Part shown: piece by piece, positions 18,301 to 60,032 of the stretch
Numbering within the stretch: position 1 is the first letter of the stretch
Layout: each line of letters opens with the position of its first letter
Source of the DNA: Mesotaenium endlicherianum
Taxonomy: Eukaryota
Length of the DNA stretch: 64,000 nucleotides
NCBI GenBank assembly: GCA_009602735.1
Contig: WELA01000984.1
Coordinates: 87,589-151,588 of the forward strand
Direction: 5' to 3'
Notes under the pieces: generated by a model
What the model saw: only the letters and a program-made list of their open reading frames with translations
Told to the model about the DNA's origin: nothing
The model's database searches: none
Position numbers and translations under genes: made by a program

Positions 18301-18499
18301 TTCAGATCCCACTCGTCTTGTTTTTAGGCGTGGTTGATACGGGGAGGGGATCTGCTGGCTGTAATTGCTATGCAAGAGTGTTCTGCAAAGCCAGAAATAC
18401 GGGGCCCCCCCAACCAAAAGAGTGGACATGGTAGGATAGAATATGGATATAGGGATTGGGGAGGCGGGTGTTAAGGATTGGCAAGATAAGAAAAAACCA

Positions 18500-22222: not shown

Positions 22223-22223
22223 G

Positions 22224-36300: not shown

Positions 36301-36381
36301 TTTGTGTAACTAAGCAGTCGCTTTTGACCGTGCGTGCTTGTTTGATCGTGGGTCCTTGACAGTTTGTTGTTTGGTTCAGAA

Positions 36382-38550: not shown

Positions 38551-41500
38551 CACATGCACCACGCGCAGGCCGAATTACGCGACACTAAATTTTGGCGCTG
38601 GGGGTACCAATTCGATACCGATCGGTCTCACTCGCGACTCTTTTGACAAAGTTAAGAACGCGTTGCAGCAGCTCACTTCTTTATAATCTTCTTTATAATT
38701 CTTTGTACACACTCTTAGCACTTACAACTCCTAATTAGAAGTTGTTAAGCACTTAAGGAGAAACACTTCACAACAAAGAAAAAGACTTGAGACGAAGTGT
38801 GGAGGCATTTACGACTAAATGAAAGTGGCGGATTCACAAGAGTAGAGCCTATAAAAGGTAAATTATGGCTCTTCTTGCTGCACTCCCGCCCCGTTAACTT
38901 TTAGTACTGTTAATTGTAATGTTTGTTATTTGCTTTGAAAAAACCGCAAATGGGTTTGGGACATTTCCACCCCGTGAATTTGTGGACATATCCGTATAAA
39001 CATATTTAGAGATGGTTTTGTGAGGAGGGGTACGAGCGACCTTGGAAACGCAGGGAAGTGTAAGTGTCAACATAAGCAGCATAAGAAGGGAAGAAACATC
39101 ATTCTTACTTCACTTTTGCCTTGGGGGCAGGTTGGGGGCAAATTAGGGGGGCAGATTTGAGGATATTCATTATTTGTTTACACAACAAGTTTTAATACTT
39201 ACCTGAGCAGTAGTAGTCCAGTATTAGTACTACATTACTCATACATTACTCATTATTCACCTCTTTACTTCTTTTCTTTCGGGGTGGGGCTAGGACTGTC
39301 AAACCAGGCCAAAAAGATCGCCCTCTATAACATGGGCATCATTCCCCAACTACTGCAGCAACTGTGGTGCAGCAAGAGGTGTGGGACTTACCTACTGTCT
39401 GTAGTGCAACAAGTCTTTCATGCGGGCTGTAGAAGTGGACCCTATGGGCTGGCTTGTTAATTATAGAATACGTGTCTATAAGAGGATAGACTCTACTCCT
39501 CAAGCAAGTGTCCGCACTAGTGATGTGAATGTGCCTAAGAACTTGTTTGAGACTCTTCTTGCACATGTAGGCAAAGAATTTTCCCACTGGGCTACCAAAT
39601 TGCTTCCAAAATCAGGAGAGGTGGTAGCTATTGTGCCCCCTTTTTTCATAGAATGGAGGATGAACAAGTTTGGAGAGAAATCTTTCACATTAAAGTTTTC
39701 ATATTCAGTTTTAAACATGAGGGGGCATGTTGTGATGGCCCTTGACCAATGTTGTGATAGACTTTTTTGGAAGGCACGTCATCATATTGACACTAGCACT
39801 CATATACAGTATAGACTTGCAGATTACCCTCTTAGGACGCATGCACATGGGCTTGAAGTTAAGGATGCCATGATAGAAGCAACACAACTTGCAAGAGCTA
39901 ACCTGCTACAGAAGGAACAACAGAGGATTAAAAGAGAGAGAGAGAGAAGTATAAGAGAGCTTATGAGTTGCAAGAAGCTGCTGATTTAGCAACTCGTGAG
40001 TTGAGAATGCAAAGGTCACAGGATCTGCGCATACCTGCTGAAAAGAAACCAGATTTTGATCCTACTTCTGCACCTTAACCTCCTACTACCTCTAAGCTAG
40101 CTAAACAAGCTGCTATACAAGTCATGAGAGAGGCAAGAGCTAAGGTTGCAAATGAAGTGAGGCAAGTGCTTCAACACAGAAAAGAGGAAGACAGGTTGAT
40201 TGCGCAACATGAGAAGGAGCATGCTCAAGCAATTCAAGCTTTGGTAAGAGAAGGCAAGCACTTGTCATCAAAAGAGCTTATGAAGAGAGCGCGCAAGGTA
40301 GCTGCCAACAAGAGAAGCACTCCAGCTATTTAGATGAGCTGCATATATACATATTGTACATTTGATTAATATTTCCTTCCTACACTAAGCATGTATTCCA
40401 CCTACTCTACTTCTCCACCTGCTTCTTTTATGTCTGTTGGATCAGATCTTGTTAAAATTGGTGCCAGTTGTCGTCGCTTAAACACCACTTTCTTCCTCTT
40501 TTGTCTTTCATTTTTACTCGATGATAGCTTTATGATGAATGGTAGCTTCTGTATGAATGTGTACAAAGTTATAGGCGGATTGGTAGGTAGGAAGGTGGTA
40601 AAATATTGGTTCAGCAGATTTTTGGTATTTTTTGATTTTTTGATTCTAAATAATATTTTTTGCATTTTTGGGAAAAATTGTATTTGAGAATGTAGAATTC
40701 ACTTCTGCCTACACACCAAATTTGTGGCATAGATTGAAATGCACATGTAGCAGGACTTATGAGGGTGAGAGAACTCAAATGTCATTTTTACTTGTACTTT
40801 TCATTAAACTTCAAAAAACTCTCAAAGTTTGAAAACACCTTCAAATTTTAAACTTGAAACTGTTATGCAATCCTCTTACATAGAAGAACAGTCTTGAAAA
40901 TTTATAGCATTAAACAATGCTGGGTTGTTAACATATGCCACTGAACACATGCATTAAAGAGAGTCACCTTTCAAGAAGTAAACGACTTCTCGCATACTTT
41001 TGCATATATACCTCATGGGCCCTATCTTGGGCTGTGGTGCTTAGAATGGACTGTAACTTGACCATTAGCACTATGGGAAGGTACAAAATCTAGTGGGATC
41101 ATGTTCAAATCCATTCTCCAAGTATTTTTGCATTGTACGAACTGGCATGCTTCACATGTGCGAGAAACTCCACATGTCATTTTGGAGGCTCACAGCCTGG
41201 TGTAGTTTGATGCAAACTGATTTTTTTTTAAAATCATGACTACCCAGTTGGGTCCTTAATGCCTCTTCAAAATTTGGGGGGAATCAAGAAGTGGAGTACA
41301 AGTTACGGCCATCTGTATGAAGTGATAAAGAGTGCAACATGTAACATTTTTCGAATTCTTGCTTACTTTTGCAAATTTCAGTTCGTGTGCATATCTTGGG
41401 TCTCAATGAATGGAATGACCCAAAACCTCACCAACAGCTCTATGAGGGCATGAAAAAACAATTTGCGAATCCGCACTACACATATACCGCATTTTACGAA

Positions 41501-41897
41501 TTGCCACTCTTCACATGTGTAAAAATCGCCCATACCTTGAAGAAATTATATGAAAAATAAAATTTTATTTTATTTTCTGCCTATCTATGAGGATTCTTAG
41601 TAGCCTCTCAAAAAAAGGAGTCAATCATGAAATCTTTGGACAACTGATGGTCATTTGTATGAAGCAGCAAGAATGAGACAAAGTGAGAATTTCCACTTTT
41701 GTCGACAAATTTTTCACTTTCACTAAAAGTGCAGCAACTTATGAAGAATATGTCAACTGTGTTTGAAACTTTAGGGAGGTCTACATACATGGGTTGTCTA
41801 TGAGAATCTCAAATTTCAGACCATTTCGACAAAACCGCCACAAATGGCGCTAAAAGGTACCTGAGTGTCCAAAAAATTGGCATTTGGGCTGCATGTG
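38551..41897 (+). mobile_element. Non-autonomous TIR DNA element with CAC ends and 2-bp TSD (CACTA/CMC-like)
   Basis: CACATGCA...TGCATGTG ends, TT on both flanks; the homologous empty site gacttgtc is at ~49586-49593; AT-rich interior. Confidence 0.75.
39332..40333 (+). pseudogene. Decayed orphan ORF (~330 codons) with N-terminal C4 zinc ribbon
   Basis: YCSNCGAARGVGLTYCL*CNKSF is in frame with ORF 39420-39989; after a (GA)n slip it continues into ORF 40124-40333. Confidence 0.6.
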
Positions 41898-42229
41898 TTG
41901 TCACTGTCACTCTCACGTGTGACTTGACTTGTGCTTTCAGTGTTGACTTTCACACATCAACAATTTGGTCGGTGAGTTGATGCTGACTTTTCGTACCTGA
42001 GGCAATCGTAACTCGCGCCACGCGTCCAACTGGTGATAGCCGCGACAGACTTCGTGCCTAACCACGTCAAGACCAGGGCACGTGTGATGCCTTCTAGCTG
42101 CCAGCACAAGTGGCATCAATCTAGTTGACGCGTCAGTGGTCTTTTACACGTGTGTCCTTTGCCTGGTCCATTGGTTGGTGCATCCCTGCACGTGAGGAGT
42201 TAACCTAGTCGATCAACCTTCACACGTAT

Positions 42230-42448
42230 CCTAGTTTTAAAATACTCCCGTACAGCATCTTTTGGCCAAATTGTACGTATTGCAATACTCCGTATCGGCG
42301 TATAACCAATTTTTTGATTTATTTCCGATTTATAGTCAGTTTATTCCACCAACACTCACGTATTTTGGCGTATTCCAACGTACAAGTTTGACTCTCACAC
42401 GGCGAATCGACGAATCCGTATGCGCCGTATCCGAATTTCAAAACTAGG
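42230..42448. mobile_element. hAT-type MITE, copy 2, perfect 8-bp TSD ACACGTAT
   Basis: TSD at 42222-42229 and 42449-42456; TIR CCTAGTTTT; empty-site homolog at ~37255. Confidence 0.9.
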
Positions 42449-42499
42449 ACACGTATGTCATTTGGTGACATAGTTTTTGTAGCTGACCATTGTTGGTCA

Positions 42500-44902
42500 T
42501 GTCGTGCATTATGAGGTCGGACGCGTCTGATCTATGTTAGCAACACACAAGCGGCAAGCAAGACTTGCTATGATGAAAAGCAAAATGCATGCGGCCTTAT
42601 GGCCAAAAAGAAGGTCAAATGTCAAATGTTTTAATTCGTGTACTCTCCAAAGTGAGCACCTCAAGACTGTGATCTGGTAGGAAAACAACTAATGAAGTCT
42701 GGCCCAAAAGGTCACTAGAAGCACATCATGATCTTCAAGAGTAGTCCTATGGCAGGGTTTAAGCTGTGGCTTTGCTCACCACTTGTGAAGTTCTTCTAGT
42801 GACTGGAAGCCAGGAGGGCTTGCTCTTCTCAAGAGAGAGACTCAGTGGTCCTGAAAACACCAGAGATGAAAGTGTAAGCTTTACTAATAACTCTGCAACT
42901 TCCAGCTGGCATAATTGACTTCTAAAAAGATGTCCTTCTAAGGGCATCTACTACTATATACTCCCTACAAAACCGGCGCTGAAGGCGGCGGATTCAATGC
43001 ACATAGTCACACTAGGAGGCTGTAATGAATCAGTTCATTATTTATTTAATGAATTGCATATACAAACATAACACTAAATAAGTATAATGTCTATATACTC
43101 ACATGTGCGAGTTCATCTAAAAGAATGTATGTCGATGTAATGCGAGTTTACTTACTTTGTCAGAAAAAGTCAGCAAGGTCACTTTTGTACCATAGTGTAG
43201 TTTGCTGACTTTGTTGAAAAGGTCAACAGGATGACTTTTGTATCATGGTGTAGTTTGCTGAGATTTATATATCAGTTATATACAGGATATAATATTAGTA
43301 GGTTGACATATAGTAAGCTCGCTTGATATTAGTCAATATACTTAGCTTCAGTACGCTGAGGATAGACATATTCATTTAGATTGTTATTTGTAGATTGGCA
43401 CACGTGACCGAAGTATACTGAAAGTTGGGAGGTCGACTGAGATTCGGTAAACCGATGTCCTACCAGTGTGGTTAACTCCTGGGTAGGCGGAGCCGTCGTC
43501 AGTCAACTGAACAGTTAGGACTTCAGTCAACCGACCAATTAATATGGTCGTTATACCTAGATCCGTGGGTCCCAACTTAACGGGTTTCCCACGAAACGGC
43601 GCACCTTGCGCCGTGGTCAACCAGGCGGTCACTAGGTACATAGCAGGCTGGGATCTCGTGGTCCCTCATTCTGGACAGTAGGCTTTACAGTCGGATTTCT
43701 ACTTGCAAGTCATGTGTGCACTTTTTGGGTTCGTTTTAATGACCAGCCTTCACGGATATTGACATGGCTGCTTTGTCTGCGCTCCAAATGGAGCGGACTA
43801 GGACTTTTCGGAAAGGTCTCGTCAAGATGCATCCGTTGCCGTTAAGTCTTTTCAATTTGGAGTAGTATTGGCAGAGATATGCCCTCTGACATTTTGGGGT
43901 CACATAGCGGACAGATTCCATGGTTTTGCACCTAAGTCAGTGGGATGTGTTTTAGCTACATTATGGTCACCTGAATGAGAGCGCCTTTGCTATTCAGTCC
44001 CCTGATGTTGTGCTTGTGCTATACATGCTTGCATGCCTGGTAGGCAAGAGGCCATGAGTTTCTAAAGGAGAAGCTCAAGTCCTCCAGCTCGCCTCTTACT
44101 TGTGTCTCGTGTCAGTGTGCAACTATGGCACACTACGGTAAATGAGTCAAGGGGTGTAGATGAGTAAATGGAATTCATTATGAGGGCGAAGATCGCTCCC
44201 TGATTTCCCACGCTTCCACCTATCTCTGATCTTATATATTTAAATGAAATATATTAATCTTGATAAGCAAGATTCATTTCAGAGGCTCTCCTAGGTCCAC
44301 GAAAGTGGAGGTAAGGCAAGTACTAGCTCTCCTATTGGCTAAGCATAACACACACCAATCAAATACAGTGCAAGGAAGAGGATGCGTGACTCTCATTGGT
44401 GGAGCTTACCTCAATCAATGCTACCTAGATAATGCCTCAAAAGTGGATCTGAAACGTAAGGAAGCTTCCTCTAGGAATGAGTGATGCAATCACCAAGTTA
44501 TAGCTCCAATGGTGCTCATATACTATGCTAATGCATGCTAAGTGTATTTTATCAAGCTCGCGAATTTGTGTGCTACTGGCTAGAGGTCCTTGGAGTCGCG
44601 AAGAGCCAACAATGTGACCTTTGGGAACATTGAGTCACAAAGTGGCCCTTGGTGAAGTCCGCTAGGGGCCGGTAGGTGGCGCGGACTAGATTGCGAATAT
44701 CTCGCTCGACACTTGACCAAATGGCGTGCAACCGATGTCATTCGGAAGGTGACGCGACGCTCTACACTTTAGCGATTTGGAATGCTAGCAAAGGTCACAA
44801 TATGAATGCGTGAAGCAAGGCCAAAGTCGGCTCTGCTAGGTCGACGGTCGACGCACGTGTGTCTCGTCTGGGGCAACGGTCCCAACCTAATGAGTCATGA
44901 CA
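42500..44902. mobile_element. Solo LTR (family D, ~1.14 kb net), 4-bp TSD GTCA
   Basis: TGTCGTG...CATGACA ends, GTCA on both flanks; reverse-complement homolog of 63109-64000. Confidence 0.85.
43021..44281 (+). mobile_element. Solo LTR (1261 bp) related to chromovirus 1, 5-bp TSD GAGGC
   Basis: TGTAATGAATCAGT...GATTCATTTCA ends as in chromovirus 1; shared core gtcctacca..gtggttaactcc.gggtaggc; GAGGC on both flanks. Confidence 0.92.
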
Positions 44903-45014
44903 GTCATCCTCCACTGGCACAAGCCAATTTGAGGGTTAGCACTCAGTGTTTTCCACACCAAGTCTTTTTCAAGATTGAACAATTTTAAAAAGGTTTCCGC
45001 CTACCTAGCTCTCC

Positions 45015-46430
45015 TTACACCCTTCCCTTGCAACTAGCTAGGGCGTCCCGCTTCTTGACTGCAAGTTGCTTTTGCTCTTCAAATTTCTGGCTGGGGGGTT
45101 TAGGAAGGCAGTCAAGGCACTCCCAACGACCTGCCATAATTTCTTCCTCTCCAATGCAAAAAGTGTGCCGTCTGGCACCACACTTATCACAAGTCACCAT
45201 TGCCTCTTGATCATCCAACACTTTGCAGCTGGCACGAGGTGTGGCTGGCACCAATTCCTCAGGCTCATCCCTAACAGTAGAATCTATGTTTGCCAAATGG
45301 CTAAGTGAGCAATTTTGCCCATGATCTCTCATAGTCTTACCGTCAAAACTTTCCAGCTCTAACACGCAATTTTCAAATGCATATTTCACGCGCAAGATGA
45401 ATGACCTGAATTGGTGTCGATGGCGGTCTTGGTCTGTCGCTTCCTCTAGACAAAGTCTCCTTCTTGGATCTGTGTCATCTGTAGGCAATATCTCCATCTT
45501 GACTCTTTGCGTAATGCTGGATATCTCGCTTTTGGGAAAAGTCTCTCTCGCTGGATATCTCTGCTTTTAGTCTCTCTAGGTAAACTCTTATTTTCAGCCG
45601 GTGCATAGTCGCTTGATCCTTCAGATCTCTTTATTGAACAAGGGTAGTGGCTCAGCTTCACCTGACACTGCCATGCCAACCATTTTGGCCAGATTCTGCT
45701 GGGCTGCTCGCGTCTTCCTCTTCACGAGAACCTCTTCTATTGTCAGAGGATGGATTAGGATTCCTACTGAGTCCATCGGCGTTGTTGTTCGGCACACCTT
45801 CTTGGTGCACCCTAATTATCTGATACTCCTGTAGCTTGAGAGCCCAGCGAGCCAGCTTCAGCCTTCACGGAGAGAACACCGTTCTTCTTGAGCCATACTA
45901 ATGGCGAGTAACCTGTAAATAGCTCAAAGGGTCTTCTCCATGAATACTCTCTAAAGTGTGCGACGGCCCAAACCGCTGTCAGTTGCTCTCCTTTGTAATT
46001 GCTCTCTGCTCTTTTAATGGAGCGCGAAGTCTAGGCAATCACGTACTCTTTCCTAGGGCTTTCGGCCTGGGTGAGCACTGCTCCAATTCCCACACTGACT
46101 CCAGTCTATGTGTAGGTTAAATGGCTTGGAATAGTCTGGTGTCCCTAGGACTGGGACTATTACCAGCCTTTCCTTCATCCCATTCATAGCGTTTTCTTGG
46201 GCGTTTGTCCACACGAAAGACACATCCTTTTTCAAAACTTCTATCTATGGCGGGGGCATTTTTCAGCCTGAAGGCATCACTATCCATTGCCATAGATCTC
46301 TTTGAGCCTCAAAAATGGTCTTACCTCAATCTTCTGTTTCACAGAGATTTGGTTGAAGCCTTGCCGCGGATCAATGATGCTGAACACCTTCTTGGTGGTG
46401 GCAATAGAGAAGATCCGCTCCGGCGTGGGC
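45015..46430 (-). pseudogene. Element B': internally deleted relative of element B (RT/RH fragments, INT C-terminus, PHD finger)
   Basis: SCKVLDDQEAMVTCDKCGARRHTFC...WECLDC; PVLGTPDYSKPFNLHIDWS; nucleotide similarity to 51.7-54.4 kb. Confidence 0.85.
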
Positions 46431-48454
46431 CACGGTCCATCCCCATTGTTGCTCCACGATTTTCAGATAGGCAATTGTAACTGCAGCGGCCTCACCTAAT
46501 GGTGGTGCAAATATTCAAGATCTGGCTGCGGAGTGCTGCTGTTGTAGCTCTACAAGTCGGTCGCAAATTGCATTTGCCTCTGTCATGTGTTGAATTTTTA
46601 CTTCTCATATTGCTAAGCTCCCTCTCCACCACTTCTGGTACCACTCTGAGACCGATTTGGACCGAAACGGCAAAAAATACCCCGAGTGTTGATCTCCGGC
46701 CATCTTTGTTTGGATTATTTTAATGCTAAGCCAGGCAAAGTGGAGAAAATGTCCGCTCCACGGCAGGCAAAGATGCTATTTTTTGGTATTTCTACGCTAA
46801 ATGCTAAAGAAATTGCATGGGAACGATCTCCGCCTGATCTCCACATTTGACGCGTAGACATTTGCATCGCCTCAAAGATTCTCACCACCATGCAATTCCG
46901 GACTAAGTATGGGCACCGTCTTCTGATTGGTCGTTGTTTAGTTCGAGTGTAGCAATATCGTTATCATGGAAGAGTTGGTCACAAAAGTCCAAAAACAAAA
47001 TTAGGAACACAAACTCAACTTTAGTTCATTTTCAAAAGCCACTGGGTGGCGGGGTGGCCTGACGGGGTGGCCTGGCAGGCCCGCTCCCCGTTTCCCGGTT
47101 GCTTTGTACTTCAGGTTGGTGCTGCCTTCCCCTCTTTTTCAGAGGTTGATAACTGCACCAATGATATGTGGATATTCATCTCAACAGCCTTGCGCGGCAC
47201 TCCATCTTTGCCTTTTTTCTTCAAAATGTCTTGGAGGATCTTGGGTGGAGGGTTACACTTCCTTTCAAAACACCACCCTTTTGAGCTTCACATCTATACT
47301 TCAGATGTCGCTCCGGCTGTCGTCTAGCTGTAGACATCATTTTACTCACGGGCCACTTTCTTTCGTTTCTTCTGAAAAGCTCTTGGCCTTTCTTGCATTG
47401 GCTTCTTCTTGGCAGTGCATACTGTCAGCTCTAGCTGTTGTTGTAGCTTGTCTTTAGTCACGGACTCCAAATTAGTGTTGCCATCCGTGGGTGGTCCCAA
47501 GTCTCCAAGTAGATCGTCAGGTTGTTACACTCCTCCCACCTACAAGTGTGCACGTCTCGGGCACTTTTGCCGCGGCGGCGCCAGGGACGTAGTTTTGAGA
47601 TAGTGTCCTTTCTTCGTACGATCCAAAGATCACCATACAGTCGTACCATCGACCAATCTCGCATCCATCGGGACTTGAACCCTGATCTCTTGGACACGAT
47701 TGCGTATGTTTGCGCTCCAATACCAATGTAACGATACGAAGGAAAAGGTAACTTGAGGTACTTTGATCGCGCGCCAATTGTACTTAAACACATTCACCGA
47801 CACTTCCGGTCGCATTTCGCAACGTGTCGCACACGTCGCATCCGGCCACGTGGCGGACCGTTACAAAAGCAACAGAGCATCCTCAGACAAATGCTGAACC
47901 AAGCTAATGAATGCAACAGGCTATGTGTATGAAGCATTCTTTCGGATCCTCTTAAGGAGATCCGCCCAATAGATCTCATCAAATTCTTTGAAAGTGAGAT
48001 TATTAGGTTTAGTTTGTCCGCTAAAATATCTACGTGACGATTTGGCTTTAGGAGTTTCATCCCTCTCATCACAAGCCATCTCAGCCGATGACCAACGACC
48101 ACTGATTCTTACCCACGCGTCTCACGTTATGCCCAAGTCAGGGGCAAAGAATTGCTCGCTATACGGATTCCCACCATTTGCGGAGATCTGTTGAGGCTCG
48201 TCTTTTGACGTTTCCTCTCTCCTTGGGTCGTCAGGTAACTTTGAGGTCTCACTTCTTTATGGACTCTCGCTTGAATCAGAATCTTCCGCAAGCTCCACAA
48301 GATGGTACACTCGACCACTCCTTGATTGCACATACAATTGGATTTCACCAGCTCCCCTTCCAGGTGGAGTTCCTGCAGTCCTCCAGGCCTCGATTCCCAA
48401 TTTGCTTTGAAATTCATGTATCTGAAACCACTTCAACCGAAGTTCTCAAAAGTA

Positions 48455-51400
48455 GGATAGAAGCGTCTTACTTTCACATAAGCTTTCACCCAAGTTGAAT
48501 GGCATGCAGGTATACAAATTCTAGTTTGCAAAAATCACGTCTAAGCAAATTAGCAAGCAACACCAGGTTTCATAGAAAAATTGCCCACCAGGGCTGTTGC
48601 TTAACTTCACAAAGTTCCAAGCTTCCAGCTTACAAAACTCTGAACCTACAGAATCTATACCAACCCGGCTTGAGCATTTTGCTCGTAACCGCGCCTAACA
48701 GTTCTTCACTGCTGGCTGGCTCATTCAATTCTTCACTGAGGGTTTTCTTGCTAACTTCCTCTTGCTTTTCAACAATTTGACTAGTGAGACTTATGAGAAC
48801 TTAAAATTAACATGGGACTCACGAGTCACCATTTTATGTGCTCTTCGCACGCTTGTGGTGTTTGGTCCAAAATTGCGCTAGAATCTCTCTAGCAGATTCT
48901 GTTTGCAAGTTCTCTAACAGGATTTTCTTCTTGGAAACTCCTAGCTTTTAACTTTTTATGGTACAAAGCGTGAGAATGGGGGCAAAGATCTTCAGCGTCG
49001 GCAGAAGTATGTCGCCTTGAATCCTTGGGCCTTGGGAGCTGCTTCCTCCTTCTCCTTTGCGCCTTTTCTTTCTTCTTCTCTCTCTCTCCTTCACCTTCTT
49101 GCTTCTCTGGCAGAAATGTGCGAGGAACGAATGAGAACAAAGTGTGCAAGGCTCGTGCCTATCACAGGCACCACGCATGTGCTCTCTCTCGAAAGCGTCG
49201 TGACTTAGTCACCTATTAACATGCATGCATAGCTCACAGCGATTATTCTCGAGACTTAACTTTTGTTGTGTCACTCAGCTTGCATGCAAGCCACGTGACG
49301 GTCGCGTGTGCTGGCTTAACCTTTCAGTCAGCGTGCACGCCTATGTGGCCATTGAGCCTATGTTTCCTGATGTGGCAACTCTGTTGTGGCAACCCTGTCA
49401 AGGGACCATGGTTGAGCTGGCCTGCACTCTTAGCGCCACCTGACTTGGAAATCGCAAAGATGGCTTTTTGTCAGCTCTGCCTGACTTGGCAGATACTTGC
49501 GAGGACCATTCGCAGAGTCTAGTGGGGTCAGCCTTGCAATTGACCTCGCTTTGTCAAAACCTTACCCATTGCTGTGTGACGGTTTGACTTGTCGCTGTCA
49601 CTCTCACGTGGGACTTGACTTGTAATTTCAAGGCTGACTTTCACACATCAGCAATTTGGTCGTTGAGTCAATGCTGACTTTTTGAACCTGAGGTAACCGT
49701 GACTCGCGCCACGCGTGCTGCGCCATCCGATAGATGCGACAGGGTGCATGTATGCTCGTTGTCGTGCCTAACAGCGTCGGACCCCTGGCACGTGCGTAGC
49801 TTCTCAGCACGTGTGCCTTTAACCCGGTCGACGTGTCGGCGGTCCCTTTCACATGCGGGAATTCCCTGGTCGTTTGGTCGGTGCGTTGTTGCTCGTGGGA
49901 AAATCGACCGAGTTGATGGTCCCCTGCACGTGTGTCGGTGGCAAACTGGCTGGGGGTGGATCCATTCCTGGTCTTCCTGCACTTGCATCATGCGGTGAAG
50001 CATCCCACACTCAGTGCTTCCCATGCTCAACCAGTTCCTCATTCCACCCTACCAACACTTAGTGAAAATTTTCAAAAAGTTATTTCATCCTCAGCTTCCT
50101 TTACAAGGACAGAAGCGTCTTACTTCCACACAGGCTTTCACCCAAGTTGAGGGTTTACAAACTGAACAGGTTTTGTGGTTTGCAGAAATCACGTCTAAGC
50201 AGCTTAACAGGCAATGCCAGATTTAGAGAAATTCGCCCTTCAAGGCTTTCGCTTAACTTCCACAAGTCACAGCTTACAAAACTCTGAAATTGCACATCTA
50301 TGCTGGCCTGGTCTGAGCTCTTCACTCAACACCGCACCTTGACAGCTCTTCACTGCTCGGCTGGGCCCACTCAGTTCTTCACTGAGAGCTTTACTTGTTA
50401 AGACTACTCTTGCTATCAGCAATTCGACAATTGAGACTTCTGAGAACTTGGAAACTAACACAGCACTCACCATTTTAAGTGACCCTCGCACGCTTGTGGC
50501 GTTTGACCCAAATCTGTGCTAATCTCCTAACAGATTCTATTTTGCAGCTCTCTACTTTCTACCAGCGAGATCCTCTCTTGGGAACTCTTGAGGCTTGACC
50601 TTTCTATGATACACTTAGGAAGAAATCTTCCAGCGTCGACAGAAGCGTGGCGTCTCGGCTCTTCTATGGCCTTGGGAACTCCTTCTTCTTTGTGCTCCTT
50701 CTGCTCCTTCAGCTTCCTTTGACAACGATGCGAGCAAGAATGAGGCTGCTTCAGGCAGGACTCGTGCCTTTCATAGACACCACACATTATCCTCTCTCGA
50801 GAATGCCAGTGCTTTGTCACAGTGCTTAGCTTGCATGCGGTCCTTACCTAGCAGCTCTCACACAGCTTAGGAGTTGTCATTCAGCATGCATGCATGCCTT
50901 GGGATTGTCGCGCGTGACTGCTTAGCCTTTCAGCTGACAATCCTACCTATGTGGTTGGCGAGCAGCGTTTAAGATGAACGCTCAAGCCGTGACTAGTCAC
51001 CTGAGGGTCTTGGCCGAGGTGGCACACAACGCCTCTGCAACATCTCTGCTGTACTTGGCTTTAGATAGCCAATTGATCAGTATCTTTCCGGGCACTTGCT
51101 GGGATGGCTCATTGCTGGTTCCATACCCCTAGCCTTTCGGCTGACTAGTCCGTCCAAATCCCCATCCATCCCTGGGTGTGGGTTTGACGTGTCGTGACCA
51201 CTTTGACAGTGATAACGACTTTAACATGACCGCTGACTAAGATAAATCGGTTCTTTGGTCGGTGAGTCAACACTGGCTTCTCGTACCTGGGCGGTCGTGG
51301 CTTGTGCTGTGCGTGCGGCACCATCAAGTGGATAGCAGTCGCGACAGCTGTCGTGCCTAACAGCGTTGGACCCCTGGCACGTGCGTAGCTTCTCAGCAAG

Positions 51401-51694
51401 TGTGCCTTCAACCCGGTTGACGTGTCGGCGGTCCCTTTCACGTGCGGGAATTCTCTAGTCGTTTGGTTGGTGCGTTGCTGCACGTGGGAAAATCGACCGA
51501 GTTGATGGTCCCCTGCACGTGTGTCGGTGGCGGACTGGCTGGGGGTTGACCCATTCCTGGTCTTCCTGCACTTGCATTATGCGGTGAAGCATCCCATACT
51601 CAATGCTTCCCGTGCTCAACCAGTTCCTCATTCCACCCTACCAACACTTAGTAGAAATTTTCAAAAAGTTATCTCATCCTGAGCTTCCCTTACA
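48455..51694 (-). repeat. 3' LTR-like region of element B: two diverged tandem ~1.6-kb units (50106-51694, 48455-50105)
   Basis: Each unit starts TGTAA (minus) and ends near AGGA(C/T)AGAAGCGTC (plus); purine tract GAAAGGGAGGGG at 51695-51706. Confidence 0.8.
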
Positions 51695-51740
51695 CCCCTC
51701 CCTTTCAGCTGAGGCGTCCCTGCCTTTCCGTTGAAAGCCT

Positions 51741-53060
51741 CTATCTTTTGGCCTTGTGGCTGGGGTTCTTAGAAAGGCAATCAGGACATTCCCATCGTCC
51801 TGCCGCAATCTCCTCTTCACCAATGCAGAAGGTGTGCCAATGGGCACTACACTTATCAGAAGTTACCATTGCTTCTTGATCATCCCGCACTTTGCAGCTA
51901 GCACAAGGTGTGGCTGGCACCAATTTCTCGGGCACAGTCTTAATCGTAGGATCGATATTAGGCAAGTGGCACAGCTAGCAGTTCTGCACGTGATCTCTCA
52001 TGGTCTTACCATCAGAACCTTCCAGTTCCAACACACCATTGTCAAACGCATGTTTCACGCGTAAGATCACTGCACCTGAAGTGGTGTCAATGGTGGTCTT
52101 GGTCCGGCGCTTGCGGTAGACAAAGTTTCCTTCCTAGATATGCGTCATTTGCAGGCGGTAGCTTTCGCCTCGCGTCCCCGCGTAACGCTGCGTTGCTCAT
52201 TTTTGTGCAATTTTCAGATTGTCCAGGGCAGCAGGCATCATGTGCTCAAATAACACCTTGCGGCGTACCATGACCTTTAGCAGTTCATCAGGGTTGTCCA
52301 GGTTTTTCACTTGCTCAATCTCCTGCTTGATGCTGCTGGGCACAACTGGACTTCTGCCAAACAGCATTTGATAAGGCAAGTAATTCGCCAAAGCAGCTTG
52401 CTTGCTAAATCTGTAACCCATAACCAGCCATGGCAGGACCAGATCCCAATCACGCTTATCATGCTCAAGGCAAAATTTGCGCAAAGCAGACTTAATGGTT
52501 TGCACCATCCAATCTGCTAAGACATCTGCTTGTGGGTGATCTCTCAACGTAGTGCGATGGTCAATGAAGCATCTATCCAAGAATTTCTGAAAAGATCCTT
52601 GGAACTCAGACCCTTGGTTTGTCAGCAGGTCTGCTAGAGCTCCATGACGTACAATCACACCGTTGAGGAGCGATTCCGCGGTCCCCAAGCTTTCCTTAGC
52701 AGTTAGAGGTACAACCTCTATCCACTTAGAGAAATGCTCAATCATGACCATAATGTACTTGTTACCTCGCCTGGACTGCGGTAGCTCACCTGCGAGATCG
52801 CAGCTTAAATCGGTAGCCTAGGCCCATGATTGGCAAAGGTTGCAGGTGTGGGTGTTGCTGCGTATAACCAGCCTTGACGCGATCGCAGCTTTTGCAGGCC
52901 TTGATCACATCCTCACACTGCTGCTTCATGCCCCTCCACCAGTAAGACAGCTCCACAAGACTATATGTCTTCTTGACACCATACTGTCCGGTATTCTCAT
53001 GCATTTCTTGCACCCGAGCTCGCCTTTTGGTGGGTCTGGCACCAACTTCTCCTGACCAAT
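51741..53060 (-). pseudogene. Element B integrase plus PHD finger
   Basis: H..GQYG..CKSC; IEHFSKWIEVVPL; LLTNQG; PHD CASC..SDKC..HWHTFC..WECPDC at ~51775-51905. Confidence 0.88.
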
Positions 53061-53299
53061 TTGTTCAATCTTGAAGAGGTTATTGCGTTTCCAGCAAAAC
53101 CTTCTAGCTCGATGGCTCACCTGGTCCTTTTCTTTCATCGATAATCCTTCCATGTGGACTCCCGTCTTCAGCCAATGCATAGTGGCTTGATGTTTCCAGA
53201 TCTCTGGAGTGAACAGGGGTAGAGGCTCAGCTTCTCCTGACGCTACCATTCTAGCCATTTCGGCCAGGCAGGCTGCCAATTCTGCTGGACTGCTTGGAT

Positions 53300-54721
53300 C
53301 TTCATCTTCTTGAGCTCCCGTTTTGTTGTCTGCGGATGGGTCCGGGTTCTTGCTGAGTCCATCGGCGTTCTTGAGTATACCTGCTCGATGTATCACTGTC
53401 ATCTGGTGCTCCTGGAGCTTAAGAGCCCAGCAAGCCAATTTACCAGTGAGGTCTCTATTCTTCATCAGCCAGAGCAACGGCGAGTGATCTGTGATCAGCG
53501 TGAAGGGTCTTCCTCATAGATACTCTCTGAAATGTGCGACAGTTCAAACCACTGCCAGCAGCTCTCCTTCGTAGGACGAGTAGTTGCTCTCCGCTCGGTT
53601 GTTAGAGCGCGAGGCATAGGCAATGACGTACTCCTCTCTAAGACTTGCGGCCTGAGTGAGTACTGCACCGATTTTCACACGACTCCAGTCAGTGTGTAGA
53701 CTGAACAGCTTGGAGTAGTTGGGCGTTCGCAAAACTGGGGCCGTTACCAGCCGCTTCTTGAGCTCGTTCATGGCCTTCTCCTGGGCTTCCGTCCATACAG
53801 AAGGTACGTTCTTTTTCAGGAGTTCTGTCAAGGGTTTAGCAATTTTGCTATAGTCCTTCACAAATTTACGATAGTATCCGCTTAGCCCTAACAAGGCTTT
53901 CAGCTTAGACACATTCGCCGGTGTAGGTATCTTGTAAATGGCTTCAGTCTTTACAGCCTGAGGGGACATAGCATTGTTTCCAATCTCATGTCATGTGCCT
54001 CAAAGAATCTGCACTTTCCAGGGTGCAGCGTCATCTGGAATTTCTCCAGGCGCTGGAACACTTGTTCCAAGTACTTGAGGTGTTCCTCTATAGACTTGCT
54101 GAACACCACTATGTCATCAATGTATGGTTTTGCAAAATCCAGCCCCTCCAGCACTTTGTCCATAGTCCTCTAAAAGATGGCTGGGGCATTTTTCAGCCCA
54201 AACGGCATTATCGTCCATTGCCAAAGTTCCCTTTGAGCCCAGAAACCGGTCTTACCTCGATCTTTTGTTTTCACAGGGATTTAGTTGAAGCCTTGGCGTA
54301 GATCAATGATGCTGAACACCTTCCCGGTGGTAGCAATTGCAAAGATCCGTTTTGGTGTAGGCATCACATAGCTGTCTGGCTCCGTGTGAAGATTCAGTCG
54401 TCTGTAGTCTCCACACATACGAGTGGCTGTATAATTGCCAGCCTCGTCCTTCTTGGCAACTACTACTGTGGGAGCTCCATGTACTGAGGTTGATTTCTCA
54501 ATCATGCCAAGCTTGTGCAGCTCCTGGCAAGTTTTATCCACACAGTCCCATTCGGTCTGACTGAGCTTATGCGGCCCAAGTCTGACTGGGTTATCAGTAG
54601 TTAGTGTGATCTCACACACACTGGCAGTGGTTCTACCAATCTCCTCCTTGGTAAAAGCAAACGCCTTGCGGTGCTTTTTCAGCAGCCTTTCTACTTGTGC
54701 TCTCTGTTGGGCTGAGACCAT
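53300..54721 (-). pseudogene. Element B reverse transcriptase and RNase H
   Basis: RMCGDYRRLN; IDLRQGFN; PYIDDIVVFS; LGLSGYYRKF; LHTDWS; YSSYEGELLAVV. Confidence 0.92.
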
Positions 54722-56989
54722 TTTTCCAATGGTGCAAACCTCAGTTTCCAGCTGCTTTTCCCCAACACAGGCATCCAGTAGTTGCTACTTTTTGGGTTCA
54801 GGTGGGGTCTTTTTGTCCTCATCCTGGCCTTCGAGCTTTTTTGCCTGATTGTTAGGAGGTGGAGTGGCAGGCTTCGTAGCTTGCTCCTCCGCTGATTTTA
54901 GGCTCGACGGCCTGCTTCCTAGGCTTTTTACCTTTTTCGATGGATCGTCGCCTCTCGTGTTGAGTGGGGTATGTCAGACGCCTCCGGATGGGCTGCCTCA
55001 AGAACCTTTCTTCATCTGCTGCAGTCCAGCTGGTCCCTGTTCCTCCCTCTTCATGTGGCGGGGGCGGGTTTGGCAAAGGCCACCCTGCTGGATCTGCTAT
55101 AAGGTCAATTGTCCAACCCCACTTGTGCTCAATAGTAGTAATGCGCGCAACGGTCGTGCCAAATTCCTCCCTGGCTGGTGGCGTAATCGTCCATGCTTGT
55201 GTCAAAGACTGGGGTCTTTGAGCCGCAGCTAGTTGTGCGTATATAGCATTTTCTGCTGTCAAGCGGCTTATGGTGCTTCTCAGCTCTACCAATTCCCTTT
55301 CAGAAACTGCAGATGTCCTAGGAGCTGAACTGTCCTTCTCCCACGTTCTAGTGGATGAAGGACGCACCATGGGAATGTGAATTCCCAGTGCCATGGCTTT
55401 GCGAATCAAGTCATCCTCTCCTTCTCTCTGCAAAATCTCCAGGATAGGTTGTGGAGGCGGAGCCATGGTTCCTTTCGGAACCCCTTCTCTCTGAGCTGTT
55501 CCCCTATACTTGAGATAACGCATCAGCATCCGCCTGAAAGGTGCATTCCCTCCCGGGCCACCTTTCTTGGTCTGCTTGCGCGACCGCGAGGATTACCTTG
55601 TGTTGGTTCCACCTTAGCGATACAGGCAGCCACTTCCTGCGGCTGTTGTAGCTGATGGGGGGTAGCTTTTGGTGCTGGAAAACTGGCGGTTGGGGTGCTG
55701 GATGTAGGCGACCTCAGATCATTGTATAGATCTGATGGGCTGGGCCCCTCCATTATCAAGCGGTCGGCCACCCAGTCATCCGTCCTGAGCTCTTGTCGCT
55801 CCAACAGATCCAGCTCTGGGGTAGGAAAACGTGGAATTTCTTCTTGAATCTCCTCTTCATTGGTGACTGATAGGAGGTCGAACCCTGGAAGGTCTGGCAT
55901 TTCTGCCTAATCTTCAACTGACTTCTCCACTCCAGGTGGTGGTGGCTCTTCATCATTATCTGTGTTGAGCTTCGCCAAGTTGACAATGGCTGATTGCAAC
56001 GTGCTTGCTGCCTTAGCCACTTCCTTTTTCTTGTGCTGTCGAGCGTCTGCTTCCAGCAGCTGCTCCATGATCTGCCTTGTAATGGATTCAGCTGTCTGAC
56101 GGGCTGAACCCTGCTGTTGCCCCTTAGCCTGCGGCTCTGGGCTCATCAAGGCAGGTGTTGTAGACAATTTCTTGTCCAACTCCTCCTGGCGTTCTTCGAA
56201 TATCACTTCAAGGCATATGGTCTTGGCAGACCCTCCAGAATCTCCTGAATTTTGGCTACTCTCTTCAGCCCATTCACCAATATTGCACTGGCGTTCTCGC
56301 CCTAATACTTGATTTAGATAATATCCAATTTCTTCAGGCGTTGGCTTAGGGGCCTTCTTCTCAGACTCTTCTGACATGTCTTGTAACGGCGCTTGCTCTG
56401 GTGAAGACGATAGATACTTTTGGTTAGCTTCCCAGCTACTTGAGCTTTCCTGCCAGTAGTCTCCGTGCCCAGCTGCTCTTGGGCTGAGGTGGGTATCATA
56501 CCGTGATCTGGTATCTTCTGGAGTCTCCTCACGCCTTGATGTTGTGGCTTCGGAAGGTGGGCTCCCAAATATCTAGCTGTGAGTGGCGTTTCTCATAGGT
56601 GATGGGGTGTCCTGCGTATCGTCTTTTGTGCTTGGCAGCGGCGTTGCCTGCTCAGGCGCCTGGTCCCCCATGGGTGTATCCTCTCTTTCCAGAGATGCTT
56701 GTAATTCATCGGTCCGGTTATCGATCCGATCCAACAGATCCTGGCATCTCATCAATTCAGCCACCCTAGCTACCCTGAATGCTCTGTCTCTGGCAGCTTC
56801 CGCTGCGTCTCTTTGCAAATCGTATTCTTCTTGTTGCTGATGTGCCGTCCTGATAGCCCTTTGATTAGATGTTGGCACCACATGGACCCCAATTGTTACT
56901 GGTCTTGGCCTCGGCATAGGCTTGTCAGTGAAGGTCAACTGCTGCCACGTCATGATTGTTTCCACTAACCAAGTCATAAAGTGCTGCCC

Positions 56990-57910
56990 AGACATGTTGC
57001 TGAAAATCTTTGACCCTACAGCACCGGCTATATGCCGAGCTATGGTGTCAAGTATTCCAAGGTATTTGCCCTTCTCCACCGCAGTAGGCTCTTTCTAAAC
57101 GGCGTCTCTTTCATGTATGTCTTTGACCATTCTTGGTCCACCTTCTATGAAGGCTCGAGATCTTGGATATGCTATGAAGGTTGGCAGTACCAACCTTGGC
57201 TGACCTAGTTCGTTGATGACACACTGTGGATAGGAATCCCTCCTAGTCACTAGTCTGGTATGCACCACCAGCGCCTCTTCCACTGTCAATGCCGTTGGTG
57301 ATCGCCGTGTAATTTCCTCCATCTCTCTCAGGACCTCAATAGACATGCCGTTGGTCCAAAATATTCTGGCCCTATGGGATAAGCCTCCGTGCTTGGCGTC
57401 GTTGATTAGCACATGATGGCCCAAAGTGGAGTCAAAAATCAGCCATGGTTCTCCCGGCTTCATCTGCTTGTAATCCATTCCTGGATGCACATTCTCAATC
57501 ACAAACACTGGTGGGTAGTAGTGCTGTCGTTCCCGCAGCATGCTGATGGTTTTTACCATCCATCCCCAGTATTGTGCTCGTAGATCACTGAATCCCCTCC
57601 TGTTTCCAGCTTGAGAAACCGGTTGACAAGGAAATCCAGCAAAGATCCAGTCAATCCTGTAGCCATACAGGCCTTCAGGCTTCACATCAATAATGTTGCC
57701 TCCGGCGATGCGCTCGACATTGCTATATGCGGGCACCAACCCTTTAAAATGATGCATTTGTCGCATCTGACTCATGACTTCTCTGAATGCTAGAAAAGCG
57801 TGGGCATCATTGTCCACATACAGGACTCTGGCCACCTGTATTCCTTGCTGGATCAATGCTATGGTCCCAGACCCAAGTTCGGCAAATAATTCCAATACCA
57901 CTACTCCCCT
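56990..57910 (-). pseudogene. Element B C5 cytosine DNA methyltransferase domain
   Basis: Motif I VLELFAELGSG; YVDND; GNIIDV; motif IV AGFPCQPVS; motif VI VIENV; motif VIII HRARIFW; motif IX-like EPTAVEKGKYLG follows a single in-frame TAG at 57095. Confidence 0.9.
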
Positions 57911-58199
57911 TTTGCGAAAAGGATCTTCCATCCTGACAATGCCTTGCGGCAGCGGCTCAACTCCAGGCATCAGATTTGCAATGGAGGTAACTGGGTAGGG
58001 TACTGGCAGCAACTCTTGCGGGCCGCGGTCCCTATTACTCAGAGTTTCCAGCTGCTTCATGATCCGAGGTTGCCATACCAAGGGTGTTGGCATGTTGATG
58101 CTCGTATAGCCTTCCTCTTCTTGCTTCATGATGTTGTCGCAGGCTTCTGGGTACCTGTCATTAACACAGCAGTCTAGCAGTCCGTAGTTTGCTTCTCCT

Positions 58200-58741
58200 G
58201 TGCAAACCATCTTCACATGAATTTCTCCTTCCGGCTGCCGATCTGTTGACCGGTAAGTCATCCTCTGATTCCGCAGATCAATGACCAAACCCAAGGGAAT
58301 CAGTGCTTCTGTTCCAAAGAGAACATCATAGTTCTCTGCCTCCGTCACTGTGCACTCCATAAGTAGTGATGCCTCTTCAGGTTCCCCTGGATTTACTGTG
58401 TCTTTCACAGGCTTGCGGGTAATCCCACAAGACTTTGAGACTTGTCCTGAGGCAATTCTCAATTGGAAAGGACTCTCTTTTAGGTCCCTTGCCGTCAATC
58501 CTAGAGCTTTCACAGCTCGCTTTCCCAGGATGACTGGCTGTGCGCCTGTATTCAACAGAATGTTGGGAGCTGCCCAGTTGTTGAAGATTAATGCACCCTC
58601 CCTATTCTGCACTCTCACGGTGCTGAAATTGGTGAGCAATGAGGCGCTATTTGCACCTTCCTCAGCTATATCCAGCTGCTGTCTGGCTTCTTCAACCGTG
58701 AATGGGTAAGTGATATGCAAATCAGCGAGGTAAAGGAGCAT
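58200..58741 (-). pseudogene. Element B aspartic protease-like domain
   Basis: ILLNTGAQPVILG (catalytic D appears as N), YDVLFG; same ORF as the DNMT (57095-58741). Confidence 0.75.
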
Positions 58742-60032
58742 GCTGGATCCGGTGTTCCACCAGGGCCTTCAGCTTCTCCAGCGAAAAACGAAATGTCTTA
58801 CGCGTCCCGGGCCTGGCTTGTCGTAGCTGCGAGATCTCATTTTCATCTAGAGTGATCCGGAAAGTCTGAGGAAGCTTCCCAGCATTCCTTGGCACCAGAC
58901 GATTGTGATCTGCTTGCTCGGCAGCCGTTGCGTCCACAGCCATTTCAGGCATCAGCTTCTCGCCTTTGCAGACGGTCTTTTCTGCAAGATCTGCATCATA
59001 GTAGACATTGGGTGCGTTTAGTTTCGCAAATTGAGCTTTCAACTCAGCGATTTCTGCACTCATAGCTTCATACTGCTGGTTACCCTTGGGGTTACCAGAG
59101 CCACCCTTTTCTTTCTTTTCTTTCTTGTCTGCCTCTTTCATGGCAACATTTGCCCATGGCGGTTTTAAATTTGGGTTCTTAGACCAGCACTCATCTTCTG
59201 AATGTCCCTTCTTGCTGCAATGTGCACATATCTGCGCCTTGCTAGCAGATAGTTACTTAGCATCTAGGTACGGACAATCCCTCTTTTGATGTCTTGATTT
59301 CTCGCAATTCCAACAGCTCTTTGCTGTTTCAGCAATGTTGGCATGCTTAGCAAACTTATTGAAAGACCCGCTCTTTTTCTTAAACTGAAAATTAGAGCTG
59401 TTGGCCTTAGGCGGAGAGGATTCCTCCCTCCTCTCAGGAGCCATAAGCGTCCTGGAAGCCTCTTTGTACCACACTTTACCTTCTTCGACATTGCGTGCTA
59501 TTTCAGCCGCCTCGTCGATGTTCCAGTTAATCCCGTGCTTTGCGGACAGATGTGGCTTGACTTCACGATCTGTTTCCTTGCCCAAGCACAACAGAAACTT
59601 GTCAGCCACTATTTTGGGCTCGTATATGTTTGCCTTTTTGGCGAGGTCTACCAATCTAGATTTAACCTCCAGGACTGTCTCGTTCTTCTGACGAACAAAA
59701 TGCACATAACGGTGCACCTTAAGACTGCGATCCTATGGGAATCGTGCTTCAAGTAACTTAAAGAAACGGCACAGACAATGCTCGGAGTCTAGCTGGTCAT
59801 CCCCACCCTCCATATCCTTACGACAGCTAGCCAAGGCTTGCGCATGGCTTGCCTCTGTCGTAGCGCTATCGCCTTGCTGACCATGAAGAGGTGCAGTTCT
59901 GCGTGTTACTTGTTCCTGAGCATTAGCAATCTTTACAGACAGTTCTGCACACACCTTTCGCAACTCTGCGACAGAGCTGGCATCATCGTTCTGAGTAGCA
60001 GCCCTTTGCTAACCCTCAGTGAGTTGCCTCAT
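58722..60032 (-). pseudogene. Element B gag, truncated by insertion
   Basis: FVRQKNETVLEVKSRL gag-like helix; two CCHC zinc knuckles. Confidence 0.8.

What the first reader, a model, noticed from the sequence alone, without database searches (positions are those of the whole stretch)
51741..60032. Gypsy retrotransposon encoding its own C5 DNA methyltransferase inside pol, plus a PHD-finger integrase
Seen: ORF 57095-58741 runs from a protease-like domain straight into a DNMT with motifs I, IV (FPCQ), VI (ENV) and VIII (RxRxFW) in order. Later ORF pieces mostly share that frame through RT, and RH, INT and a C-terminal PHD finger follow across a few frameshifts, so this looks like one decayed ~7-kb polyprotein. 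Known: DNMT-carrying retrotransposons have been reported in dinoflagellates and charophytes, so the concept is not new. Inference: the element pairs an epigenetic writer with a histone reader and may methylate its own cDNA or target site. This copy has stops and is probably inactive.
Basis: partly seen in the sequence, partly recalled or inferred. Interest (0 to 1): 0.88.

Follow-up and report, generated by a model that had tools for sequence, protein, structure and literature searches.

The report
Jumping gene with DNA-methylating enzyme
This is a broken copy of a Gypsy jumping gene that encodes a DNMT3-like DNA-methylating enzyme and a PHD zinc finger; the family was already described from the alga Klebsormidium, and working copies likely methylate their own new DNA.

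Summary
The minus strand carries gag-protease-C5 methyltransferase-spacer-RT-RNase H-integrase-PHD (Pfam DNA_methylase 1e-12, PHD 3e-5). The methyltransferase is DNMT3-like by profile and by predicted fold. This copy is dead: 14 stops, 6 frame changes, damaged motifs. It is not a one-off insertion: the complete order recurs in 10 of 80 fetched loci and in an older copy in this window.

It is a member of the known Gypsy-DNMT3 family (KnitGypsy-Dnmt3, de Mendoza 2018). It shares the CCHC-protease-DNMT order with a Klebsormidium protein, sits in the same DNMT clade, and has the same B-A-B 3' repeats. PHD fingers in algal Gypsy elements and writer-plus-reader retrotransposons are also published.

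Not found in my searches: (i) relatives in liverworts, peat moss and chlorophytes; (ii) a second layout with the DNMT between RNase H and integrase; (iii) a roughly 1.9-kb extra spacer here; (iv) repeat anatomy pointing to insertion from a two-LTR circle. This scan had already noted (iv) on other DNA. Self-methylation is inferred: there is no excess CpG loss, and the Klebsormidium enzyme was inactive in the published yeast test.

The parts
58722..60032 (-). gag remnant with two CCHC-like knuckles (near 59315 and 59230); its 5' part is cut off by a chromovirus
   Evidence: Read by eye; no Pfam hit; relatives carry zf-CCHC at this position
58301..58564 (-). aspartic protease; catalytic motif reads NTG in this copy
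   Evidence: PF13975 E 0.0023, below cut-off; own profile built from relatives hits it
56960..57905 (-). DNMT3-like C5 cytosine methyltransferase, unrearranged motif order; catalytic Cys, Glu and Arg kept; motif I damaged; stop at 57095-57097
   Evidence: PF00145 1.1e-12; alignment with 121 relatives; predicted fold matches DNMT3B at Z 17.8, rmsd 3.8, 211 aligned
54790..56950 (-). spacer rich in E, P, A and R, about 1.9 kb longer than in relatives; no known domain
   Evidence: covered by family contigs; fragments in the second copy
53990..54640 (-). reverse transcriptase (YIDD intact, with stops)
   Evidence: PF00078 7e-10
53410..53795 (-). RNase H
   Evidence: PF17919 5e-26 and PF17917
51980..53031 (-). 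integrase (H2C2 finger, core, C-terminal part); second and third catalytic positions not intact
   Evidence: PF17921 3e-14, PF00665 2e-6
51777..51905 (-). C-terminal PHD finger; one zinc-ligand position is Ser in this copy; no Trp two residues before the His
   Evidence: PF00628 3e-5; alignment; solved-structure hits
51695..51706 (-). polypurine tract directly before repeat B1
   Evidence: Sequence
51190..51694 (-). repeat B1
   Evidence: 93% identical to B2 over 346 nt, 70% distally
50106..51189 (-). repeat A2; holds a site near 50449 complementary to the primer-site-like sequence that follows A in the second copy
   Evidence: 81% identical to the next A; 14 of 16 nt complementary
49590..50105 (-). 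repeat B2; chimeric, with the distal part closer to the second copy's B
37085..49590 (-). second, internally deleted family copy (A, spacer/RT/RH/PHD fragments, PPT, B, A, B) interrupted by other insertions; no DNMT left
15191..20423 (-). older, distant relative with the same PR-DNMT-RT-RH-INT-PHD order
   Evidence: DNA_methylase 0.009, RVT_1 8e-13, PHD 4e-5

Best explanation
This is a decayed copy of a Ty3/Gypsy retrotransposon of the Gypsy-DNMT3 family, with a DNMT3-like methyltransferase between protease and reverse transcriptase and a PHD finger on the integrase; in working copies the enzyme likely methylates the element's own cDNA and the finger is predicted to steer insertion. Shown: domain order, DNMT3-like fold, catalytic residues conserved across relatives, fixation of the domain in the family, and the terminal repeat anatomy. 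Inferred: (1) The polyprotein is packaged and cut by the protease, which frees the DNMT next to the new cDNA. It would add 5mC, probably at CG, so that the new copy arrives already marked. (2) The PHD finger would bind H3 tails unmethylated at K4 and so bias insertion away from active promoters. (3) Reverse transcription would start by self-priming and give a linear B-A-coding-B-A DNA. Its ends would be joined into a two-LTR circle, and integrase would open the circle at an internal CA-NN-TG site, giving the observed A-coding-B-A-B insertion with a 4-bp duplication. Identity about 0.92; cDNA methylation about 0.55; K4-unmethylated reading about 0.6; circle route about 0.55.
For: Domains. DNMT3-like: a 15-sequence family profile hits DNMT3A at 3e-25 versus DRM 9e-13 and HhaI 3e-12; the model (pLDDT 77) gives DNMT3A/B/C in all listed Foldseek rows and Z 17.8 for DNMT3B versus 13.5 for the best non-DNMT3. 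Conservation: catalytic Cys 121 of 121, motif VI Glu 121 of 121, motif VIII Arg 121 and 120 of 121 relatives; pN far below saturated pS in 6 of 6 locus pairs. Fixation: complete order in 10 of 80 loci and in an older copy in the window; summed contig depth over the DNMT about 17,000 against 51-57 for unique contigs in run X1, and contigs of organisms B and C span linker and DNMT. Family: Klebsormidium GAQ93235 is CCHC-protease-DNMT; one DNMT clade of 34 of 44 rows, 100/100. Repeats: B-A-B in 6 loci (5 sites); 21 of 21 left ends in view start TGTCATG; exact 4-bp duplication at 4 of 6 testable sites; primer-site complement of 11-16 nt in 11 of 20 loci (controls at most 8); a retained primer-site piece at the A|B junction of L121. 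PHD best matches WSTF, KMT2D, KDM5 PHD1, ATXR5, BAZ2B. SymbioDIRS-Dnmt3 domains methylate CG in yeast (PMC5890265).
Against: No activity was measured. KnitGypsy-Dnmt3 gave no methylation in yeast, reported as inconclusive. CpG observed/expected in the element (0.55) is no lower than in neighbouring DNMT-free elements (0.26-0.54). The window's DNMT alone hits no DNMT3 chain at E up to 1; its best hit is M.HaeIII at 0.0017. Its branch is long (1.76 against a median of 0.44) and unresolved within the clade, so this lineage's enzyme may be under relaxed selection. The tree held one host DNMT3 (insect) and no plant DNMT3. Three PR-DNMT-RT-INT relatives lack a PHD (P0107, P0164, P0181). For the circle route: the mirror product A-B-A-coding-B was seen in 0 of 21 loci; 7 loci end in a single B; the window's own B|A junction is two bases shorter and lacks TG; the element's left end lies outside the window.
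Confidence: 0.6

Rival explanations
1. The DNMT travels with the pre-integration complex and methylates, or simply binds, host DNA at the target site. Together with the PHD it would act like a host DNMT3 with its ADD domain and seed a silenced patch around the new insertion.
For: A PHD predicted to read K4-unmethylated H3 is the functional analogue of the DNMT3 ADD domain (recalled). DNMT and PHD co-occur in both layouts. There is no CpG loss specific to the element.
Against: DNMT and PHD are separated by protease-cleavable RT/RH or by integrase, and the DNMT sits in two different slots. This fits a free particle component better than a tethered one (inference). Some relatives have a DNMT but no PHD.
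Confidence: 0.2
2. In this lineage the DNMT has become a weak or non-catalytic module, kept as a DNA-binding or structural part of the polyprotein.
For: Long DNMT branch against an ordinary RT branch (1.76 versus 0.62); many family-conserved positions differ; negative yeast assay for the Klebsormidium domain. Earlier scan notes describe dead DNMT folds in other Gypsy elements (unchecked).
Against: Catalytic Cys, Glu and Arg are kept even in this decayed copy. Several departures coincide with places where other copies differ (only the best-supported rows shown). Relatives show purifying selection.
Confidence: 0.17
3. A one-off chimera: a host or viral DNMT gene landed in one Gypsy copy, or the assembly is mis-joined.
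For: No relative of the spacer was found among 230 proteins or the 80 loci; no contig spans the whole element.
Against: The same order occurs in 10 of 80 loci, in named Klebsormidium, Closterium, Marchantia and Calypogeia proteins, and in an older copy in the window. The DNMT is in frame with the protease and has no intron. Viral DNMTs fall outside the clade.
Confidence: 0.02

Closest known systems
KnitGypsy-Dnmt3 / Gypsy-DNMT3 of Klebsormidium nitens (de Mendoza et al. 2018, PMC5890265)
   Same: Gypsy pol with an intronless, unrearranged Dnmt3-related DNMT; CCHC-protease-DNMT order (GAQ93235, 27% identity over about 555 aa, 8e-40); DIRS-like A-coding-B-A-B repeats; same DNMT clade.
   Different: The paper's text does not mention a PHD (0 occurrences; Fig. 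4c itself not seen; the Klebsormidium protein in hand is partial). This family has about 1.9 kb more spacer and appears far more abundant. The paper gives no mechanism for the repeats and names no bryophyte or chlorophyte members in the parts read.
EpiLTRs (bioRxiv 10.64898/2026.05.21.726589)
   Same: LTR retrotransposons that combine a DNA methyltransferase with a histone-reader domain.
   Different: EpiLTRs carry DAM, a DNMT4-related DNMT and a chromodomain. The authors state this is distinct from streptophyte Gypsy-DNMT3.
Gypsy-7a_cRei and REM1 of Chlamydomonas reinhardtii
   Same: Gypsy/LTR elements with a PHD finger, proposed to reduce harmful insertions (PMC9940879; REM1 seen only as a citation).
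   Different: No DNMT is listed among the Gypsy-7a domains, and its LTRs are described as near-ordinary.
SymbioDIRS-Dnmt3 of Symbiodinium
   Same: Dnmt3 in pol, two alternative domain orders, A-coding-B-A-B repeats, CG methylation shown in yeast.
   Different: A tyrosine-recombinase element with an independent capture; here a DDE integrase makes 4-bp duplications.
Tf1/Tcn1-type self-priming Gypsy elements
   Same: Primer site complementary to the element's own predicted 5' end rather than to a tRNA (PMC6317226 passage; Tf1 details recalled).
   Different: Those have ordinary LTRs and a chromodomain, and no DNMT.

Membership tests
Ty3/Gypsy LTR retrotransposon | PR-RT-RH-INT order with a DDE integrase | tested here: met
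Ty3/Gypsy LTR retrotransposon | Polypurine tract before the 3' repeat and a primer site after the 5' repeat | tested here: met
   PPT at 51695-51706. A self-priming-type site follows A in the second copy and in 11 of 20 relatives; the element's own 5' end is outside the window.
Ty3/Gypsy LTR retrotransposon | Two identical LTRs with TG...CA at the outer ends | tested here: not met
   The repeats are permuted (A-coding-B-A-B); TG...CA and 4-bp duplications mark the outer ends in relatives
Gypsy-DNMT3 (KnitGypsy-Dnmt3) | Intronless C5 DNMT inside the pol ORF | tested here: met
Gypsy-DNMT3 (KnitGypsy-Dnmt3) | Dnmt3-related with unrearranged motif order (not DRM) | tested here: met
   Profile and fold; the single sequence alone does not reach DNMT3
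Gypsy-DNMT3 (KnitGypsy-Dnmt3) | DNMT groups with the Klebsormidium retrotransposon DNMT | tested here: met
   Same 100/100 clade of 34 rows; position inside it unresolved
Gypsy-DNMT3 (KnitGypsy-Dnmt3) | A-coding-B-A-B repeats | tested here: inconclusive
   B-A-B is present at the 3' end of both window copies, but the left A of this copy is out of view and B2 is chimeric; complete in L119, L127, L130, L137, L143
Gypsy-DNMT3 (KnitGypsy-Dnmt3) | Key catalytic residues conserved under purifying selection | tested here: met
   for relatives; this copy keeps Cys, Glu and Arg but has a damaged motif I
Active C5 DNA methyltransferase | Methyl transfer to cytosine | not testable with these tools
   Needs an assay
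Chromovirus | Chromodomain at the integrase C-terminus | tested here: not met
   PHD instead; neighbouring chromoviruses do score Chromo
EpiLTR | DAM plus DNMT4-like DNMT plus chromodomain | tested here: not met
   No DAM or Chromo hit in the element's ORFs; the DNMT is DNMT3-like
DIRS/PAT tyrosine-recombinase elements | Tyrosine recombinase and no target duplication | tested here: not met
   rve integrase; 4-bp duplications in relatives

The most novel reading that the evidence does not exclude
One ancient clade of green-plant Gypsy elements, spanning chlorophytes, charophyte algae, liverworts and mosses, carries its own de novo DNMT3 and a PHD reader of unmethylated H3K4. It has moved the DNMT between two slots of the polyprotein and integrates from a two-LTR circle cut at an internal att site. 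The DNMT methylates that circle so that new copies enter the genome already disguised as host DNA.
Probability: 0.3. Interest if true: 0.75.

Novelty: new member of a known kind. Interest (0 to 1): 0.42.

Why it matters
The element extends a family known from one alga. Named relatives show that DNMT-carrying Gypsy elements reach liverworts, peat moss and chlorophytes. Naturally intact open frames exist among the relatives (for example L097, 3329 codons, and L100, 3609 codons), which makes the open question of what a retrotransposon does with its own DNMT testable without rebuilding anything. If the circle route is real, a DDE integrase would routinely use the two-LTR circle, usually regarded as a dead end (recalled), as its substrate. 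This single copy is dead and adds little by itself.

Tried and rejected
No whole genome is held for the window, so copy number and intact copies could not be counted directly. Two word-index protein searches with the window's ORF found nothing, while the exhaustive search found 395 relatives. A metagenome scan with the window's RT confirmed no locus. The viral collection gave only generic phage and giant-virus DNMTs (E 1e-10 or weaker), used as outgroups.

No RNA holder was listed for the stretch, and expression remains untested. The spacer had no Atlas hit and no relative in session data.

A link between the Marchantia hits and the host gene MpDNMT3b was rejected: that gene is Mp5g09290, whereas the hits are gag-protease-DNMT gene models. 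A CpG-depletion signature of self-methylation was not found. A tRNA-type primer site (TGG start) was not seen after A in the 20 loci listed. The careful RT tree of 51 rows did not finish (quick tree only); a thinned 32-row tree was used. Paper searches returned 0 papers; the listings from searches showed no title or abstract on a Gypsy element with permuted repeats.
Full report
Observation. Pfam finds, on the minus strand and in order, a weak aspartic protease and a C5 DNA methylase (1.1e-12) in one ORF, then RT, RNase H, the integrase zinc finger and core, and a PHD finger. A gag remnant with two CCHC-like knuckles lies upstream (read by eye). The inferred coding path has 14 in-frame stops and 6 frame changes. 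Other copies in organism A differ by small indels at or near several of these places (table 4, best-supported rows only), which fits one ancestral reading frame. Aligned with 121 relatives, the DNMT keeps its catalytic Cys, Glu and Arg, has a damaged motif I, and continues past the stop at 57095-57097. The protease and integrase catalytic motifs and one PHD zinc ligand are also damaged. The copy is dead. A chromovirus LTR ends at 60033 inside gag, so the element's left end is not in the window.

Not a one-off. In run X1, contigs identical to unique parts of the window have depth 51-57, while summed depth is about 17,000-18,000 over the DNMT, 11,000-15,000 over the spacer and 32,000-39,000 over RT and integrase. 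The tool warns that summed depth is no copy number, so I read this only as a large family that includes the DNMT. Contigs of organisms B and C span linker and DNMT at about 83% identity. The window holds an older relative with the same complete order at 15.2-20.4 kb and a deleted second copy at 37.1-49.6 kb.

Relatives. The exhaustive search found 395 proteins at E up to 0.001; the best 150 were kept. With 25 cluster members added, 46 of 175 had RT-RH-DNMT-INT-PHD and 12 had the DNMT after a protease or before RT; 66 showed the DNMT alone, and near-duplicates are included. Of the 23 proteins scanned with Pfam (22 of them long), 19 carried a PHD. In 80 metagenome loci, many near-identical, PR-DNMT-RT-RH-INT-PHD was complete in 10 and RT-RH-DNMT-INT-PHD in 18. 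Named proteins with the window's layout come from Klebsormidium nitens (GAQ93235, CCHC-protease-DNMT, partial), Closterium, Marchantia polymorpha and Calypogeia fissa. A Sphagnum magellanicum gene model joins DNMT, integrase and PHD pieces, and Mesostigma has the DNMT. The second layout is named from Scenedesmus and from a gene model labelled Chrzof1, which I read from memory as Chromochloris. The DNMT-to-RT distance is 525-774 nt in 39 of 40 loci (1585 nt in one) against about 2670 nt here. The host of the window is not known; a green alga or non-seed plant is my inference from these relatives.

Which DNMT. A family profile hits DNMT3A/B at 1e-25 to 1e-20, and DRM and HhaI at about 1e-12. The window's sequence alone reaches only M.HaeIII at 0.0017. 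Its model (pLDDT 77, pTM 0.77) matches DNMT3 chains first by Foldseek and by full alignment (DNMT3B Z 17.8, rmsd 3.8, 211 residues; best other 13.5). In a 44-row tree, 34 retrotransposon DNMTs, including the window's and Klebsormidium's, form one clade (100/100) and the 11 RH-DNMT-INT rows form a subclade (100/99). The window's branch is long and unplaced, only one host DNMT3 was included, and the rows were thinned. A 32-row RT tree also separates the RH-DNMT-INT elements (99/99); the window's RT is nearest L127/L156 (52% identity, 93/83). One capture followed by a move of the domain is the simplest reading, but neither tree is firmly rooted. In 6 of 6 pairs of intact loci, non-synonymous differences in the DNMT were far below saturated synonymous ones.

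PHD. The finger of L127 best matches WSTF, KMT2D, KDM5 PHD1, ATXR5, BAZ2B and CHD4; the window's matches PHF10 and KDM5B. All 12 aligned fingers lack a Trp two residues before the zinc His. From recalled PHD biochemistry this predicts binding to H3 tails without K4 trimethylation. It is untested.

Repeats. After the PHD come a polypurine tract, B1, A2 and B2, and the second copy shows the same PPT|B and A|B junctions. In relatives the whole arrangement is visible. A-coding-B-A-B is complete in L119, L127, L130, L137 and L143, and B-A-B alone in L141. All 21 left ends in view begin TGTCATG (16 different flanks) and none has B in front. B ends in GACA in most listed ends (two decayed). The 4-bp target duplication is exact at 4 of 6 testable sites, one base off at one and absent at one. 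Seven loci end in a single B. The internal B|A junction is a CA-NN-TG near-palindrome, and the exact 12-mer also appears in 7 of 9 second-layout loci with at least 2.3 kb after the PHD. The bases after the left A are complementary to a site inside A in 11 of 20 loci (11-16 nt; controls at most 8), and L119 folds into the corresponding long stem (z -2.7); this is a self-priming signature. Ordinary reverse transcription would then give B-A-coding-B-A. The inserted form is its circular permutation, and L121 retains a piece of the primer site at the A|B join, as end-joining would leave. Against this: the mirror product was never seen, and the window's B|A junction is two bases shorter and lacks TG. 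I noted this reading before finding that the scan had proposed it on other DNA.

Function. Self-methylation is the authors' hypothesis for this class, and SymbioDIRS-Dnmt3 domains methylate CG in yeast, but the Klebsormidium domain did not (PMC5890265). CpG observed/expected is 0.55 in the element and 0.26-0.54 in DNMT-free neighbours, so composition gives no support. Expression is untested.

Literature seen. PMC5890265: parts 1-5 of 7, passages, and a search of 3 supplementary text files; figures were not seen and may show a PHD. PMC6338049: parts 1-2 of 4; it states that such elements are absent from land plants such as tracheophytes. bioRxiv 10.64898/2026.05.21.726589: part 1 of 5, passages and section 8; its supplements were not seen. 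Passages only: 10.1101/2021.11.30.470311, PMC11982613, PMC6673714, PMC8557442, PMC9940879, PMC6317226, 10.1101/2021.02.12.428880. Ten searches turned up no account, in the listings or in the passages read, of bryophyte or chlorophyte Gypsy-DNMT3, of its PHD, or of a mechanism for its repeats. The library lacks most subscription papers.

Verdict. The feature is real and belongs to a known family. The DNMT-in-Gypsy idea, PHD-bearing algal Gypsy elements and writer-plus-reader retrotransposons are all in print. The wider range, the second layout and the circle-like repeat anatomy add moderate interest. Interest 0.42.

Noticed in passing
window 15191-20423 (-): Older, distant Gypsy-DNMT3 copy with the complete PR-DNMT-RT-RH-INT-PHD order and a short DNMT-RT linker; no flanking repeats found by self-comparison.
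   Followed up: partly
window 49590-50105 (-): Repeat B2 is chimeric: proximal 346 nt 93% like B1, distal part 84% like the second copy's B. The two copies sit head to tail at a B|A junction; unexplained.
   Followed up: partly
window 38560-41898: An insertion with short inverted ends appears to have landed at the B|A junction of the second copy; it contains a 194-codon ORF (39405-39989) with no Pfam hit.
   Followed up: no
window 21502-33323 (+): Chromovirus with 97% identical LTRs of about 720 nt, interrupted by a piggyBac-like transposase ORF of 779 codons (25484-27823); a 557-codon ORF (30841-32514) with no Pfam hit follows the chromodomain integrase.
   Followed up: partly
window 60033-63117 (-): Chromovirus (RT-RH-INT-SH3-Chromo) inserted in the element's gag; its LTR (60033-60772) has very high depth in organism A.
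   Followed up: partly
window 1-14000: GC-rich (62%), intron-rich host gene with GT/CA microsatellite introns; exon pieces look VPS35L-like from memory, untested.
   Followed up: no
P0208, P0210, P0215 (Marchantia), P0190, P0207 (Calypogeia), P0203 (Sphagnum): Bryophyte gene models that are pieces of Gypsy-DNMT3 elements and could be miscounted as host DNA methyltransferases.
   Followed up: partly
P0005 1184-1223; P0028 737-780: Some RH-DNMT-INT-PHD polyproteins also carry a G-patch domain between DNMT and integrase.
   Followed up: no
L104 9215-13918, L107 7293-12545: Long ORFs restart after the B|A junction, which suggests tandem copies or collapsed assemblies.
   Followed up: no
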